64,000 nt of DNA from a virus, in the UHGV virus genome UHGV-2113617; one strand, written 5' to 3'. Under the pieces are notes generated by a model, which was not told where the DNA came from, searched no databases, and saw nothing but the letters and a program-made list of their open reading frames with translations. Positions 15,382 through 41,668 of this stretch are shown one piece after another. A program made the translations under genes and the position numbers. Position 1 is the first letter of the stretch. The number at the start of each line of letters is the position of its first letter.

Positions 15382-15702
15382 TTATAGCGTAATCCATTCT
15401 CGTATTGTCTGAGTTACTACACGTTCACGGGGCTCGACTAGTTCAACAGTCGGAACTGCATAATACCAGTCAGAATGATAAGAACCTGAACGGCATTCAT
15501 TTACGGAAACATGTACATTATGTTTTGGACTAAAATAAACACACTGACGATATTGACATTTACCGTCTTGCACCCAGTCTTCTATTTCGACAGGTTTAAG
15601 ATAATCGGAAAAATCGAAATCATAGTTTTCTGAAAATGCATCATGGTCTTCAATGATTTCACTCAGAACTGCATCAACATCTAATTTATTTTCAATAGTC
15701 AT
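15382..15702 (-). CDS. hypothetical protein
   Basis: 106 aa acidic ORF. Confidence 0.55.
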   Translation of the reverse strand: MTIENKLDVDAVLSEIIEDHDAFSENYDFDFSDYLKPVEIEDWVQDGKCQYRQCVYFSPKHNVHVSVNECRSGSYHSDWYYAVPTVELVEPRERVVTQTIREWITL

Positions 15703-29442: not shown

Positions 29443-29628
29443 TTAAAGCGTATTCACATAAGCTATTAATTCGTTTTCTTTCTTATCAAACCGATCAGCA
29501 AATTCTTCCTGGTGTTCGGGAGATAGCGGGCCGTATTCATCATAAAAGGTGTTTGCTTCTGTATGCTCATCTAGAAGTTCATGGATAAGCTCAAACAATT
29601 TATCTTTTTGTTCTTTACTCAGACTCAT
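29443..29628 (-). CDS. hypothetical acidic protein
   Basis: 61 aa ORF. Confidence 0.5.
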   Translation of the reverse strand: MSLSKEQKDKLFELIHELLDEHTEANTFYDEYGPLSPEHQEEFADRFDKKENELIAYVNTL

Positions 29629-29798
29629 ATATTAATTTCCAGAAGTTTTAAAATAATTCGCTTTTGCTTAAATATTTCCATAGTTAAATGATCAGTATCT
29701 TTTTGACCAATTCCAATGGCAAAACCTTTATTAACAGCGAGTTCAATTAAATTATCAAGTTCACGTAACACTTCATATTGTAACTCAAAACTATTCAT
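29625..29798 (-). CDS. hypothetical small protein (57 aa)
   Basis: MNSFELQYEVLRELDNLIEL...; ATGA overlaps at both ends link it to neighbouring ORFs. Confidence 0.4.
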   Translation of the reverse strand: MNSFELQYEVLRELDNLIELAVNKGFAIGIGQKDTDHLTMEIFKQKRIILKLLEINI

Positions 29799-30022
29799 TT
29801 TGGTTTACCTTCTTTAACGAAATCAGGATAAGGATAAAATCCTGAATAAAATCCTTCGCCTTTATGATTGATGCATCCTTTATTAGAGCAATAGCACCAA
29901 TAATCGAAATCACAAGCCATTTCATCATTGCATAAAGCAAAAACAACTGGCCATTTACACTTTTCACAATGTGCATTTTTAAGAATGCTAGTTTGGCTCA
30001 TAACCATGTAACCTTTAAGCAA
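29795..30022 (-). CDS. cysteine-rich (probable zinc-binding) small protein
   Basis: 75 aa with CEKCKW...C..C..C..C pattern. Confidence 0.5.
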   Translation of the reverse strand: MLKGYMVMSQTSILKNAHCEKCKWPVVFALCNDEMACDFDYWCYCSNKGCINHKGEGFYSGFYPYPDFVKEGKPK

Positions 30023-30210
30023 TATTCTTCTACATGCTGTTTACGACCTTTCTTATCAATAAAGGTATATTCAACGAATGTTCCAATATAGTCTTTATCT
30101 ACATCATGTGGACTATTAATTGGGCATTTAGTACGGCAAATGCGTTCCCATTGACGAATAATTTCCACTTTGTTTTTAGGATCAAACGGATGCGGGTAAT
30201 GTGCTTTCAT
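29998..30210 (-). CDS. hypothetical protein
   Basis: 70 aa ORF. Confidence 0.5.
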   Translation of the reverse strand: MKAHYPHPFDPKNKVEIIRQWERICRTKCPINSPHDVDKDYIGTFVEYTFIDKKGRKQHVEEYCLKVTWL

Positions 30211-30661
30211 AATCCACCACTATTAAATCAATATCAGGAGTAAACATGTCGATTAATTTAGAAACCTTATCCCAATCACCGCCAGCAATACCACAACCTA
30301 TGCGTGGAATGTAAATTACTGGTTTAAACAAAAGGGTTTCTGCCTGTAGATTTAATTCTATCATGCAGTTTACTAAAGCACCATAATCAAGATTAGGACC
30401 CGGTTCGTATTGTGTATACAGGTTATAGCATATACCAAATCCCGTAGGATTATGTTTAAAAACAATAGACATATCGCCTAGTTTATCACGAGAACCGTAC
30501 TCAGTAGTGGTTTTATCTATTTCTAAAATTTTAGGATAGGCCCTTGCTAATTGACCTGCTACACCTGAACCCATAGTATGAAAACAATTGCATCCGTGCG
30601 CAATAATATTACCTTGAAGAAATAGGGCGACAATATCGCCCTTGATATATTTTACAATCAT
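30182..30661 (-). CDS. macrodomain protein (TARG1/DarG-like ADP-ribose hydrolase fold)
   Basis: 159 aa; KGDIVALF..IIAHGCNCFHTMGSGVAGQLA and IYIPRIGCGIAGGDW match the two signature motifs of TARG1-type macrodomains. Confidence 0.65.
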   Translation of the reverse strand: MIVKYIKGDIVALFLQGNIIAHGCNCFHTMGSGVAGQLARAYPKILEIDKTTTEYGSRDKLGDMSIVFKHNPTGFGICYNLYTQYEPGPNLDYGALVNCMIELNLQAETLLFKPVIYIPRIGCGIAGGDWDKVSKLIDMFTPDIDLIVVDYESTLPASV

Positions 30662-32033: not shown

Positions 32034-32063
32034 ATTATACCACAGTCAAGAGGAAAAGTAAAC
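32034..32063 (-). promoter_or_regulatory. T4-type early promoter for regB (GTTTACT-17-TATAAT)
   Basis: Minus strand GTTTACT tttcctcttgactgtgg TATAAT, then AAGAGGAG SD and the regB ATG. Confidence 0.6.
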
Positions 32064-32386: not shown

Positions 32387-32610
32387 ATACTGGCTTCTTT
32401 GAGTTTCGTTTTAGCAATAGTTAACTGATCGAGACTTTCAGCATAATTCTTCGCGAATTCGCAGTCTTCACAATTATCTAGTGCTTCCCAGAATTCATCA
32501 TATAAAGCATCAAAGATAAGCCCTAAACGAACTTCAGCATCTTTGATAGCATTCACTTTACCGATTTTCTCTTCAGTATGTGGCTTATAACCCTTAATAT
32601 CTTCAATCAT
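32344..32610 (-). CDS. hypothetical small acidic protein (T4 vs.4 position)
   Basis: 88 aa ORF; T4 Vs.4 has been reported as a cyclic-nucleotide-binding anti-CBASS protein, but identity is positional only. Confidence 0.5.
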
Positions 32611-32824
32611 ATTTTACTTCCTCACCAGTACCTAAATCATATTCAACTAAACGAATAGGTTCATGAATGCCATATCCCTGAACAGAAATTTCTGTCGTAG
32701 GATAAATTCCATCAATATCACCCATATTCCATGCTTCATTAAATTGCTGTTCGCCTGAATTACTAAACCACTCGGCGAAAGCATTTAGCACATCTTCAGA
32801 ACCTTCAATAATTATCTTTGCCAT
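32603..32824 (-). CDS. hypothetical protein (T4 vs.5 position)
   Basis: 73 aa ORF. Confidence 0.5.
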   Translation of the reverse strand: MAKIIIEGSEDVLNAFAEWFSNSGEQQFNEAWNMGDIDGIYPTTEISVQGYGIHEPIRLVEYDLGTGEEVKYD

Positions 32825-35392: not shown

Positions 35393-35923
<531 letters not shown>

Positions 35924-40309: not shown

Positions 40310-40386
40310 TGGTCGAGGCAGAAGGATTCTAACCTTCAACCAACGGATTAGAAATCCGTTGCTCTATACAATTGAGCTATGCCCCG
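40310..40386 (-). tRNA. tRNA-Arg (anticodon UCU), CCA encoded
   Basis: Manual fold: acceptor CGGGGCA/UGCCUCG with a G-U pair, D-arm GCUC..GAGC, anticodon loop UUUCUAA, T-arm GAAGG-UUAGAAU-CCUUC. Confidence 0.8.
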
Positions 40387-40389
40387 TAA

Positions 40390-41055
40390 TTAAAATTTCA
40401 TTTTTCGACCTTTAAACCATCCTTCTGGAATTGGGTCAGTTTTCTTAATACGTTTAGAAACTTTTTCATCTAATGAATGAATCCACATCATACCAAATTG
40501 AGAATTCTTTTCACCTTGTTGGTGTTTATTTCTGGCGTGAGATTCTTTCATTTTATTAATAGTTTCAGGAGTATGGGTCTTACCCAAGAAAGATTTAGTA
40601 TTTAAAAATTTCTCTCTATACTTAGGATTATCCCAAAGCTGTTTAAACCTTTCTGAACCCATTTTACGATATTTTTCTTTAAGGTCTGGGTCGTTCTCAA
40701 ATCTGGTTTTAAAAGCGGCAGCTCCTTTTAAGGAAGCTTCTTTCTTTTTATCCAAATATTCTTTAGTGTTTAAATGGTCCCAACCACCTTCACCACCTAA
40801 TTTCAAATTATAAACATCAGGGCGCTTTAAAAACTCTTCAGTCACAATATTCTTTTCTGACTCAAACATAGAGGTTTTATCGTCAAAGAACTCTAATATT
40901 TCTTTAGAAAAATTTTCTATACCATACTTGTCTTGGGCTCTTTTTAATAATTTACCAGAACCCATATATCCATCATCTAAATTTTCGGTAGAATGAGCGC
41001 CTATGTAGATTTTATTATTAATTTTATTTGTTATTTTATAAATGTAATGGAACAT
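40390..41055 (-). CDS. segB: GIY-YIG homing endonuclease SegB
   Basis: 221 aa; N-terminal HYIYKITNKINNKIYIGAHS (GIY...YIG); located between tRNA-Arg and the 7-tRNA subcluster as in T4. Confidence 0.85.
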   Translation of the reverse strand: MFHYIYKITNKINNKIYIGAHSTENLDDGYMGSGKLLKRAQDKYGIENFSKEILEFFDDKTSMFESEKNIVTEEFLKRPDVYNLKLGGEGGWDHLNTKEYLDKKKEASLKGAAAFKTRFENDPDLKEKYRKMGSERFKQLWDNPKYREKFLNTKSFLGKTHTPETINKMKESHARNKHQQGEKNSQFGMMWIHSLDEKVSKRIKKTDPIPEGWFKGRKMKF

Positions 41056-41096
41056 AAATATCTCCTATTTCTAAGAGTATTTATGTTCTCAAAATA

Positions 41097-41168
41097 TGGC
41101 CCTGGGTGGAATTGAACCACCATCTGGCGATTATGAGTCGCTTGCTTGAACCTTCCAGCTACAGGGCC
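41097..41168 (-). tRNA. tRNA-Ile (anticodon CAU; Met not excluded)
   Basis: Manual fold: acceptor GGCCCUG/CAGGGCC, anticodon loop CUCAUAA, T-arm GGUGG-UUCAAUU-CCACC; T4 has a CAU tRNA-Ile here. Confidence 0.75.
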
Positions 41169-41174
41169 TTGATA

Positions 41175-41247
41175 TGCTGATTGACGGAATCGAACCGCCG
41201 ACGTCCTCATTACAAGTGAGTTGCTCTACCTACTGAGCTAAATCAGC
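41175..41247 (-). tRNA. tRNA-Thr (anticodon UGU)
   Basis: Acceptor GCUGAUU/AAUCAGC, D-arm GCUCAGUAGGUAGAGC, anticodon loop CUUGUAA, T-loop UUCGAUU. Confidence 0.85.
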
Positions 41248-41254
41248 GAAATTA

Positions 41255-41341
41255 CGGAGGCGATAGGATTTGAACCTATGAGTCGCCGGAGCGACTGCCG
41301 GTTTTCAAGACCGGTGCATTAAACCACTCTGCCACGCCTCC
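41255..41341 (-). tRNA. tRNA-Ser (anticodon UGA)
   Basis: 87 nt with long variable arm; acceptor GGAGGCG/CGCCUCC; anticodon loop CUUGAAA. Confidence 0.85.
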
Positions 41342-41343
41342 AG

Positions 41344-41417
41344 TCTCCGCGGCAGGATTTGAACCTGCGACATTCTGCTCCCAAAGCAGACGCTCTACCA
41401 AACTGAGCTACACGGAG
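41344..41417 (-). tRNA. tRNA-Pro (anticodon UGG)
   Basis: Acceptor with one G-U pair; D-arm GCUCAGUUUGGUAGAGC; anticodon loop UUUGGGA; T-arm GCAGG-UUCAAAU-CCUGC. Confidence 0.85.
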
Positions 41418-41429
41418 TAAATTAAATTT

Positions 41430-41501
<72 letters not shown>

Positions 41502-41507
41502 AAACTT

Positions 41508-41594
41508 TGGTACGAGAAGTGGGACTCGAACCCACAAGGAAATCATTCCGCAGCATTTTAAGTGCTGTGCCTTTACCAATTTGACCATTCTCGC
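41508..41594 (-). tRNA. tRNA-Leu (anticodon UAA), CCA encoded
   Basis: 87 nt with long variable arm; anticodon loop CUUAAAA; T-arm GUGGG-UUCGAGU-CCCAC. Confidence 0.85.
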
Positions 41595-41595
41595 G

Positions 41596-41668
41596 CTGGG
41601 AATAAAGGACTTGAACCTTTGCATCTAGCAGTCAAAGTGCTATGCCTTACCAACTTGGCTAATTCCCA
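41596..41668 (-). tRNA. tRNA-Gln (anticodon UUG)
   Basis: Acceptor UGGGAAU/AUUCCCA; anticodon loop CUUUGAC; T-arm AAAGG-UUCAAGU-CCUUU. Confidence 0.85.

What the first reader, a model, noticed from the sequence alone, without database searches (positions are those of the whole stretch)
30182..30661. Phage-encoded TARG1/DarG-like macrodomain
The 159-aa protein carries both signature motifs of the TARG1-type macrodomain (GDI...AHGCNC..MGSGVAGQLA and IPRIGCGIAGGDW). Proteins of this fold hydrolyse ADP-ribose from proteins or DNA; the bacterial antitoxin DarG uses it to reverse DNA ADP-ribosylation by DarT, a known anti-phage toxin. A phage copy could therefore counter DarT-type defence, or tune the phage's own ADP-ribosyltransferases. 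It sits in a chain of translationally coupled small ORFs downstream of tk.
Basis: partly seen in the sequence, partly recalled or inferred. Interest (0 to 1): 0.6.

Follow-up and report, generated by a model that had tools for sequence, protein, structure and literature searches.

The report
Phage macrodomain that counters DarT
This is the T4-family phage gene tk.4 (also called adfM), a small enzyme domain that strips ADP-ribose; a 2025 preprint showed phage T4 needs it to survive the bacterial DarTG2 defence, so the finding is right but not new, and the copy here is a common, divergent allele.

Summary

The window is a T4-like phage, and the gene sits in the tk.4 slot (regB > vs.1 > vs > tk.4 > tk.3 ... 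> tk). A Nov 2025 preprint found tk.4 to be the single T4 gene required on a DarTG2 host and named it adfM.

Three refinements:
- The TARG1/DarG catalytic Lys is an invariant Gln here (258/258 homologs with a residue there), and TARG1 Asp125 is Ala/Gly. This matches SCO6735, which cleaves thymidine-linked ADP-ribose from DNA and needs that Gln.
- This copy is only 58% identical to T4 Tk.4, while the flanking genes are 93-100% identical. It is a sharply bounded allele replacement. Both alleles are common (337 vs 225 phage records).
- The gene lies upstream of tk, not downstream.

No biochemistry exists for any Tk.4-type protein, and this allele has not been tested.

The parts
30182..30661 (-). 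tk.4 / adfM coding sequence: 159 aa plus stop, a single macrodomain
   Evidence: ORF. Pfam Macro. PHROG 335. 58% identity to T4 Tk.4 in identical synteny. AF2 pLDDT 94.2. An identical CDS is annotated 'phosphatase' or 'Macro domain-containing protein' in close relatives.
30557..30598 (-). Codons H22-A35 (HGCNCFHTMGSGVA): first ADP-ribose-binding loop, with invariant H22, N25, C26, G33 and A35
   Evidence: Invariant columns. N25 aligns with SCO6735 N27 and the DarG Asn. Mutating the corresponding Asn lowers activity in SCO6735 and in PhiKZ gp104 (N23A).
30410..30424 (-). Codons N80-Q84 (NLYTQ): the position of the TARG1 K84 / DarG K80 catalytic lysine, occupied here by an invariant Gln
   Evidence: Profile alignments. 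Q in 121/121 and 137/137 homologs. SCO6735 Gln85 is essential.
30272..30307 (-). Codons P119-W130 (PRIGCGIAGGDW): second, diphosphate-binding glycine-rich loop. A126 sits at the TARG1 D125 position
   Evidence: The loop is nearly identical to SCO6735 and BT1257 (PRIGCGLAGG.W).
30192..30528 (-). Divergent allele block (about residues 45-157): 36-68% nt identity to T4, inside a backbone that is 80-100% identical
   Evidence: Sliding nt identity. Neighbouring proteins are 93-100% identical to T4 against 58% for this gene. The window-type segment is in 337 phage records and the T4-type in 225.
30658..30661 (-). ATGA overlap between the vs stop codon and the tk.4 start codon (translational coupling)
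30182..30210 (-). 29-nt overlap between the 3' end of tk.4 and the start of tk.3. In T4 this overlap is 4 nt
32034..32062 (-). Best sigma-70-like promoter match upstream of regB (TTTACT-17-TATAAT with TG). It is a possible start of the regB-vs-tk.4-tk transcription unit, by inference only
   Evidence: The scan as a whole is not enriched over shuffles (16 found vs 18.6 expected), so this is weak evidence.

Best explanation
The ORF is this phage's copy of the T4 gene tk.4 (adfM). It encodes a stand-alone, single-domain macrodomain of the ALC1-like/TARG1 class and lies in the tightly packed, translationally coupled regB-vs-tk gene cluster.

Most likely mechanism. When the host DarT2 toxin ADP-ribosylates thymidines (TNTC motifs) in single-stranded phage DNA and blocks replication, the protein binds the ADP-ribose moiety in the cleft formed by the HGCNC...MGSG and PRIGCGIAGGDW loops. 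It then hydrolyses the thymine-ribose bond, releasing ADP-ribose and restoring the DNA. It would act as an 'orphan antitoxin'.

The chemistry is not the lysine-based chemistry of TARG1 or DarG. The equivalent residue is an invariant Gln (Q84), held by an invariant Asn (N25), as in Streptomyces SCO6735. In SCO6735 the Gln positions the distal ribose, and a water-mediated mechanism has been proposed.

What is shown and what is inferred:
- Shown here: the fold, the class, the orthologous position and the active-site make-up.
- Shown in the literature: T4 tk.4 is required on DarTG2 hosts, and the Gln-type enzyme SCO6735 cleaves thymidine-linked ADP-ribose from DNA.
- Inferred: this 58%-identical allele does the same, and it does so by hydrolysis.
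For: Macrodomain family and fold:
- Pfam Macro is above its cut-off.
- The AF2 model has pLDDT 94.2.

Orthology with T4 tk.4:
- The gene order is the same.
- Identity is 58% over 155 aa with no gaps, E=1e-70.

Function of the T4 gene:
- tk.4 was the single significant hit on a DarTG2 host, and the clean knockout was sensitised.
- T4 lacking both adfA and adfN stays resistant to DarTG2, so another factor was expected.

Active site:
- Q84 is present in 121/121 and 137/137 homologs. H22, N25, D49, N80 and Y82 are invariant or nearly so.
- Q84 aligns with SCO6735 Q85, and N25 with SCO6735 N27.
- SCO6735 cleaves dT-ADPr DNA. Its Q85A mutant is dead and N27S is nearly dead. The activity was re-confirmed with synthetic substrates.
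- In the diphosphate loop the window allele (IGCGIAGGDW) is closer to the family consensus and to SCO6735/BT1257 than T4's own allele (IGAGIGKGNW) is.
Against: - No Tk.4-type protein has been assayed in vitro. The T4 evidence is genetic only and comes from a preprint.
- This allele differs from T4's at 42% of positions, mostly in residues 45-157, which include the substrate-facing loops. It has not been tested.
- Tk.4 lacks the 5-6-residue lysine-bearing 'mobile loop' that SCO6735 is proposed to use for DNA binding.
- SCO6735 Val25, proposed to position the catalytic water, is Gly23 here. The proposed role is for the backbone, so this may not matter.
- A comparative survey argued that most phage Macro domains act on soluble ADP-ribose derivatives rather than on macromolecular adducts.
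Confidence: 0.7

Rival explanations
1. The protein is mainly a Poa1p-type 'phosphatase' or a processor of soluble ADP-ribose derivatives. Candidate substrates are ADP-ribose-1''-phosphate from KptA/Tpt1-type RNA repair, O-acetyl-ADP-ribose, and ADP-ribose-derived immune signals. On this view the DarTG2 phenotype is secondary.
For: - Databases name it 'phosphatase' or 'A1pp phosphatase motif'.
- The invariant H22 aligns with Poa1p H23, a residue chosen for mutagenesis in the deposited structures, and T29 aligns with Poa1p S30.
Against: - The only functional data for the orthologous group point to DarTG2, a DNA-modifying system.
- The 'phosphatase' label is transferred by homology and has not been tested.
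- Position 29 is variable in the family: T in 70 of 121, also L, V, Q, S and M.
- The two roles are not mutually exclusive.
Confidence: 0.12
2. It protects mainly without catalysis, either by binding and inhibiting DarT2 directly or by shielding ADP-ribosylated sites. The deep allele divergence would then reflect matching to different DarT2 variants.
For: - Catalytically dead SCO6735 Q85A still inhibits DarT, and more strongly than dead DarG or dead TARG1.
- The small phage factors AdfA and AdfB act by binding the toxin, and their alleles differ in specificity.
- tk.4 shows a sharply bounded 58%-identity allele replacement in an otherwise 93-100% identical backbone. This is the pattern expected for a partner-specific interface rather than for a toxin-agnostic hydrolase.
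Against: - Every residue expected for catalysis (H22, N25, Q84 and the Gly-rich loops) is invariant over hundreds of very divergent homologs, including stand-alone bacterial ones with no DarT nearby. That argues for selection on enzymatic activity.
- The protein has no counterpart of the DarT-binding C-terminal domain of DarG.
Confidence: 0.1
3. It reverses or tunes ADP-ribosylation written by the phage's own transferases (Alt, ModA, ModB), or it removes ADP-ribose from RNA to counter RNA-targeting ADP-ribosyltransferase defences such as CmdTAC.
For: - T4-like phages encode their own ADP-ribosyltransferases (established knowledge).
- The same class of macrodomain (TARG1) acts on several nucleic-acid linkages.
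Against: - Alt and Mod enzymes modify arginine, a linkage that macrodomains are not known to cleave (established knowledge of the family).
- In the HIDEN-SEQ text read here, tk.4 is reported only as a conditional hit on DarTG2.
- The Gln-type relative SCO6735 is inactive on 2'-OH RNA ADP-ribosylation.
- The CmdTAC paper does not mention a T4 macrodomain.
Confidence: 0.05

Closest known systems
T4 Tk.4 = AdfM (anti-DarT factor Macrodomain), NP_049723; HIDEN-SEQ preprint 10.1101/2025.11.20.689424
   Same: - Same genomic slot between vs and tk.3.
- Same length class (155 vs 159 aa) and the same single-domain architecture.
- All family-invariant residues are shared, including Q84.
   Different: - Only 58% identical: 84% over residues 1-44 and about 48% over the rest.
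- The diphosphate loop is IGCGIAGGDW here and IGAGIGKGNW in T4.
- There are 4 extra C-terminal residues, giving a 29-nt overlap with tk.3.
- This allele has not been tested functionally.
Streptomyces coelicolor SCO6735 (PDB 5e3b) and Bacteroides BT1257 (PDB 2afc/2fg1)
   Same: - Gln at the TARG1-K84 / DarG-K80 position.
- An H-x-C-N motif and an almost identical PRIGCG[LI]AGG.W loop.
- Stand-alone, with no toxin partner.
- SCO6735 cleaves thymidine-linked ADP-ribose from DNA.
   Different: - Only 26-28% identity.
- Tk.4 lacks the 5-6-residue Lys-bearing mobile-loop insert.
- Tk.4 has Gly23 where SCO6735 has Val25, and C26 where SCO6735 has Asp28.
- Cellular protein versus phage protein.
DarG (DarG2) antitoxin macrodomain (Mtb 5m3i, T. 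aquaticus 5m31/5m3e)
   Different: - The catalytic Lys80 is replaced by Gln.
- There is no C-terminal DarT-binding domain. NCBIfam DarG scores 27.8 bits against a cut-off of 250, and only the N-terminal 142 of 338 profile positions match.
- There is no adjacent darT.
Human TARG1/OARD1 (4j5q-4j5s)
   Same: Top Foldseek hit (TM up to 0.83). The loops GD...H....MG.G and PRIGCG...W are shared.
   Different: Both residues of the catalytic dyad are absent (K84 to Q, D125 to A). TARG1 has Ser where this protein has N25.
PhiKZ gp104 'AdfM' (Cell Rep 2026, PMC13309987)
   Same: It is a phage-encoded stand-alone macrodomain that counters DarTG2. Removal of T-ADPr from an oligonucleotide has been shown in vitro.
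   Different: It is a different lineage. It is DarG-type, with the FPTK lysine motif, and BLASTP similarity to the window protein is marginal (E=0.001 over 33 aa). The same name was given independently to two non-orthologous proteins.
Yeast Poa1p ADP-ribose-1''-phosphate phosphatase (6lfq-6lfu)
   Same: It shares the HxCNC motif (H23 aligns with H22), and sequence and fold similarity are strong.
   Different: Poa1p has TS rather than TQ at the Lys/Gln position (my reading of the Poa1p sequence as shown). It carries a long insertion before the second loop, and its known substrate is a soluble metabolite.

Membership tests
Macrodomain superfamily (Pfam PF01661) | Sequence match above the curated threshold | tested here: met
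   33.1 bits against a gathering score of 22, covering 2-117 of 118 profile positions.
Macrodomain superfamily (Pfam PF01661) | Alpha/beta/alpha macro fold | tested here: met
ALC1-like / TARG1-like macrodomain class | Closest structural and sequence neighbours are TARG1, DarG, Poa1p, SCO6735/BT1257 and ALC1, rather than MacroD, PARG or coronavirus types | tested here: met
TARG1 proper | Catalytic dyad Lys84 / Asp125 | tested here: not met
   Q84 and A126 occupy these positions. None of the 258 homologs with a residue there has Lys or Asp.
DarG antitoxin (DarTG2) | Catalytic Lys80 in the macrodomain | tested here: not met
   Gln aligns with Lys80 of both Mtb and Taq DarG.
DarG antitoxin (DarTG2) | C-terminal DarT-binding domain, with the full-length model matched | tested here: not met
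   The protein is a 159-aa single domain. NCBIfam DarG scores 27.8 bits against a cut-off of 250, matching profile positions 2-142 of 338. PADLOC DarG matches positions 3-144 of 329.
DarG antitoxin (DarTG2) | Encoded next to a darT toxin gene | tested here: not met
   The neighbours are vs and tk.3.
SCO6735/BT1257-type (Gln-type) thymidine-ADPr hydrolases | Gln at the Lys84/Lys80 position, held by a conserved Asn (SCO6735 Q85/N27) | tested here: met
   Q84 and N25 align with them and are invariant.
SCO6735/BT1257-type (Gln-type) thymidine-ADPr hydrolases | Extended Lys-bearing mobile loop, and Val/Ile at the SCO6735 V25 position (stated to be SCO6735-specific) | tested here: not met
   The loop is 5-6 residues shorter, and Gly23 stands where SCO6735 has Val25. 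Tk.4 is therefore a sister group and not a member of the SCO6735 subfamily proper.
SCO6735/BT1257-type (Gln-type) thymidine-ADPr hydrolases | Hydrolysis of thymidine-linked ADP-ribose on ssDNA | not testable with these tools
   This needs an enzyme assay.
T4 Tk.4 / AdfM orthologous group | Positional orthology between vs and tk.3 in a Tequatrovirus genome | tested here: met
   Gene order is identical to T4, and the flanking proteins are 93-100% identical.
T4 Tk.4 / AdfM orthologous group | Full-length sequence homology to T4 Tk.4 | tested here: met
   58% identity over 155 aa with no gaps, E=1e-70. Same PHROG 335.
T4 Tk.4 / AdfM orthologous group | Required for phage growth on a DarTG2 host | not testable with these tools
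   Shown only for the T4 allele.
Poa1p-type ADP-ribose-1''-phosphate phosphatase | Residues mutated in the Poa1p structures (H23, S30) are conserved | tested here: inconclusive
   H22 aligns with H23 and is invariant. T29 aligns with S30, but this position varies in the family. Activity was not testable.

The most novel reading that the evidence does not exclude
The two deeply divergent tk.4 alleles are kept side by side, by recombination, in T-even backbones that are otherwise nearly identical. The breakpoints lie at the conserved N-terminal motif and at the gene's 3' end. This pattern may not be neutral. The variable two-thirds of the domain could set specificity, either for different DarT2 variants through direct toxin binding (as dead SCO6735 inhibits DarT) or for different ADP-ribose linkages. 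In that case Tk.4 would be a dual hydrolase-plus-inhibitor that uses a lysine-independent, Gln/water mechanism, distinct from DarG.
Probability: 0.2. Interest if true: 0.55.

Novelty: already known. Interest (0 to 1): 0.3.

Why it matters
The gene belongs to the set of counter-defences that T-even phages hold against DarTG systems. AdfA and AdfN act against DarTG1, and Tk.4/AdfM acts against DarTG2. Knowing which allele a therapeutic or model phage carries could help predict its host range on DarTG2-bearing strains.

What this analysis adds to the published genetics:
- The whole Tk.4 family is Gln-type. It is not a captured DarG, and it cannot use the TARG1/DarG lysine mechanism. The best biochemical model is SCO6735.
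- Two 58%-identical alleles circulate in near-identical genomes.
- The name AdfM currently covers two non-orthologous proteins, T4 Tk.4 and PhiKZ gp104.

These are refinements and not a new kind of system.

Tried and rejected
- **Promoter and terminator scan of 28.7-33.6 kb.** It is not enriched over shuffles (16 found vs 18.6 expected), so no firm statement about transcription can be made. The 'terminator-like' hairpin at 30624-30642 lies inside the coding region and simply encodes the conserved KGDIVAL.
- **DarG membership through NCBIfam and PADLOC.** Only sub-threshold N-terminal matches were found, so membership was rejected.
- **Equating the window protein with the biochemically characterised PhiKZ AdfM.** Rejected: gp104 is a Lys-type DarG-like protein with only marginal similarity.
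- **Looking for adfN and adfA in the window.** They are T4 genes 30.3 and 61.2, which map outside the T4 interval this window covers.
- **Inspecting active-site geometry in the model.** The coordinates are not exposed to the sandbox, so residue equivalences rest on profile alignments only.
- **Bacterial context of one homolog (Pelagimonas).** No DarT or defence neighbours were found. Only one locus was examined.
- **The CmdTAC paper.** It contains nothing on a T4 macrodomain.

Full report
**1. The observation**

An ATG-to-TGA ORF of 159 aa occupies window 30182..30661 on the minus strand. The ORF is far beyond chance:
- Pfam Macro (PF01661) scores 33.1 bits against a gathering score of 22, across almost the whole model.
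- PHROG 335 matches at E=1.6e-71.
- tblastn finds homologs in 2,778 of 50,697 phage records.
- An exhaustive HMMER scan of 1.84 billion cluster representatives gives 6,146 relatives at E<=1e-3 and 1,579 at E<=1e-10, mostly single-domain proteins of about 150 aa.

The chain of coupled ORFs is real. The overlaps are vs.1/vs 8 nt, vs/tk.4 4 nt (ATGA) and tk.4/tk.3 29 nt. Three further 4-nt overlaps follow, and then a 9-nt gap before tk. One statement is wrong: all of these genes are on the minus strand, so the ORF is transcribed before tk, not after it.

**2. Where the window comes from and which gene this is**

The 3.5 kb around the ORF is 98-99% identical to many Tequatrovirus (T4-like) genomes. 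In phage HY01 the same CDS is annotated 'Macro domain-containing protein'. In the RefSeq record of Yersinia phage ZN18 it is annotated 'phosphatase', at identical coordinates.

In T4 itself the slot between vs and tk.3 holds tk.4, annotated 'phosphatase; contains A1pp phosphatase motif'. The window protein aligns with T4 Tk.4 over 155 residues without gaps, at 58% identity and E=1e-70. It is therefore the positional ortholog of tk.4.

**3. What is published**

- A bioRxiv preprint of Nov 2025 (HIDEN-SEQ, 10.1101/2025.11.20.689424) infected a DarTG2-expressing host with a T4 transposon library. [quoted passage not shown] A clean knockout sensitised T4 to DarTG2. The authors noted AlphaFold similarity to the M. 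tuberculosis DarG macrodomain and named the gene adfM. Hydrolysis of ADP-ribose from DNA was proposed but not shown.
- This fills a gap left by earlier work. T4 lacking both adfA (61.2) and adfN (30.3) remained fully resistant to DarTG2. Those two genes lie outside this window.
- A Cell Reports paper of 2026 also uses the name AdfM, for PhiKZ gp104. That protein does remove thymidine-linked ADP-ribose from an oligonucleotide in vitro. It carries the DarG-type FPTK lysine motif and has only marginal similarity to the window protein (E=0.001 over 33 aa). The two 'AdfM' proteins are not orthologs.

**4. Fold and class**

An AlphaFold2 model built from a 64-sequence alignment has mean pLDDT 94.2 and pTM 0.89.
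- Foldseek against the PDB puts TARG1 first (E=8e-10, TM up to 0.83). Poa1p, BT1257, DarG (T. aquaticus and M. tuberculosis) and SCO6735 follow.
- Sequence searches of the PDB agree.

**5. The catalytic residues**

I first confirmed that my reference sequences are the PDB sequences: TARG1 matches 2lgr/4j5q and Mtb DarG matches 5m3i exactly, and the T. aquaticus DarG (5m31) and SCO6735 (5e3b) sequences were read from the HMMER output. The SCO6735 numbering reproduces the residues named in its paper.

Profile-anchored alignment gives these equivalences:

| Window position | Tk.4 (window / T4) | SCO6735, BT1257 | TARG1 | DarG |
|---|---|---|---|---|
| 84 | Q / Q | Q (also ALC1) | K84 | K80 |
| 126 | A / G | A | D125 | G |
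| 25 | N / N | N | S | N |
| 22 | H / H | H | H | N |

Gln84 is present in 121 of 121 listed homologs and in 137 of 137 further, more divergent representatives. Position 126 is only ever Ala or Gly. The lysine-based chemistry of TARG1 and DarG therefore cannot apply.

There is a direct precedent for the Gln type. S. coelicolor SCO6735 has Gln85 at this position and cleaves thymidine-linked ADP-ribose from DNA. It is inactivated by Q85A and nearly so by N27S, and it protects cells from DarT. Its dead mutant even inhibits DarT by interaction. The authors state that this Gln separates SCO6735/ALC1 homologs from TARG1/DarG homologs (PMC9411070). The activity was confirmed with synthetic substrates. 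SCO6735 is inactive on 2'-OH RNA ADP-ribosylation.

Tk.4 also shares the HxCN motif and an almost identical PRIGCG[LI]AGG.W loop with SCO6735. It differs in lacking the 5-6-residue Lys-bearing mobile loop and in having Gly23 for Val25. It is best described as a separate, largely phage-borne branch of Gln-type macrodomains. It is not a captured DarG. One bacterial homolog that I examined is stand-alone among housekeeping genes.

**6. A divergent allele in a T4 backbone**

Proteins encoded around the gene are 93-100% identical to T4:

| Gene | aa identity to T4 |
|---|---|
| rI.-1 | 100% |
| rI | 96.9% |
| tk | 99.0% |
| tk.3 | 92.9% |
| vs | 95.7% |
| vs.1 | 99.4% |
| regB | 99.3% |
| vs.4 | 100% |
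| **tk.4** | **58%** |

. At nucleotide level the divergence is confined to about 30192-30528, where identity is 36-68%. The 5' end of the gene and everything upstream are 80-100% identical, and tk.3 is 90-98% identical. In protein terms, residues 1-44 are 84% identical and the rest about 48%.

Megablast with the variable segment finds the window-type allele in 337 phage records (RB3, PE37 and many others). The T4-type segment is found in 225 records (T4, T2, RB18 and others). Both alleles keep every invariant residue. In the diphosphate loop, the window allele is the more canonical of the two. Whether this dimorphism is functional is unknown; see the novel case.

**7. Mechanism, with its status**

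- Shown here: the fold, the class, orthology with tk.4, the Gln-type active site, tight translational coupling, and the absence of a DarT-binding domain and of a darT neighbour.
- Shown in the literature: T4 tk.4 is needed on DarTG2 hosts, and a Gln-type macrodomain hydrolyses T-ADPr DNA.
- Inferred: this allele binds ADP-ribosylated thymidine on single-stranded phage DNA and hydrolyses the N-glycosidic bond. Q84, held by N25, would position the distal ribose, undoing DarT2's replication block.
- Weakly inferred: transcription from a promoter-like site upstream of regB (32062 to 32034). The scan as a whole is not enriched.

**8. Rivals**

- Poa1p-like phosphatase, or processing of soluble ADP-ribose derivatives. 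This is the source of the database name 'phosphatase', and a 2022 survey favoured it for phage Macro domains in general.
- Non-catalytic inhibition of DarT2.
- Reversal of the phage's own Alt/Mod modifications, or of RNA ADP-ribosylation.

The evidence for and against each is given in the Rival explanations section. None is excluded by computation, but only the DarTG2 role has experimental backing.

**9. Verdict**

The gene has been annotated as an A1pp/macro-domain protein in T4 for years, and its anti-DarTG2 role was reported in 2025. This analysis adds refinements: the Gln-type chemistry, the allele replacement, the non-orthology of the two 'AdfM' proteins, and the corrected gene order. Interest is low to moderate.

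Noticed in passing
window 29443-30001 (minus strand): The small-gene block between tk.3 and tk also differs from T4. The ORF next to tk (61 aa) is only 54% identical to T4 Tk.2. A 57-aa ORF and a Cys-rich 68-aa ORF (29795-30001, MVMSQTSILKNAHCEKCKWP...) have no T4 counterpart in the region compared. The whole tk.1-tk.4 interval is therefore a variable island in a conserved backbone.
   Followed up: partly
window 32603-32824 (minus strand): The ORF in the vs.5 position is 73 aa, against 58 aa in T4, and only 18 residues align. This is another locally replaced small gene.
   Followed up: no
window 30624-30642: A perfect GC-rich hairpin (AGGGCGATATTGTCGCCCT) lies inside tk.4 codons 7-13, 20 nt after the start codon, and is identical in T4. 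It may only reflect the conserved KGDIVAL coding sequence. A role in translation or mRNA stability was not tested.
   Followed up: partly
literature (not a window coordinate): The name AdfM has been given independently to two non-orthologous phage macrodomains. One is T4 Tk.4, which is Gln-type and supported by genetics only. The other is PhiKZ gp104, which is Lys-type and DarG-like and has biochemistry.
   Followed up: yes
window about 35482-35922 and about 15417-15611 (coordinates transferred from Yersinia phage ZN18, L003): By coordinate transfer from a close relative, the window also appears to carry a Nudix hydrolase (T4 nudE-like; its family includes ADP-ribose pyrophosphatases) and the dmd antitoxin gene. 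A Nudix enzyme could dispose of the ADP-ribose released by the macrodomain, but this is pure speculation. The ORFs were not verified in the window itself.
   Followed up: no
window 40310-41668 (minus strand): The window has eight tRNA genes (Arg, Met/Ile-CAT, Thr, Ser, Pro, Gly, Leu, Gln), with a gap of about 710 nt after tRNA-Arg. From memory this is the T4 set. The close relative ZN18 has 11 annotated tRNAs, so the window departs from ZN18 past about 40 kb.
   Followed up: partly
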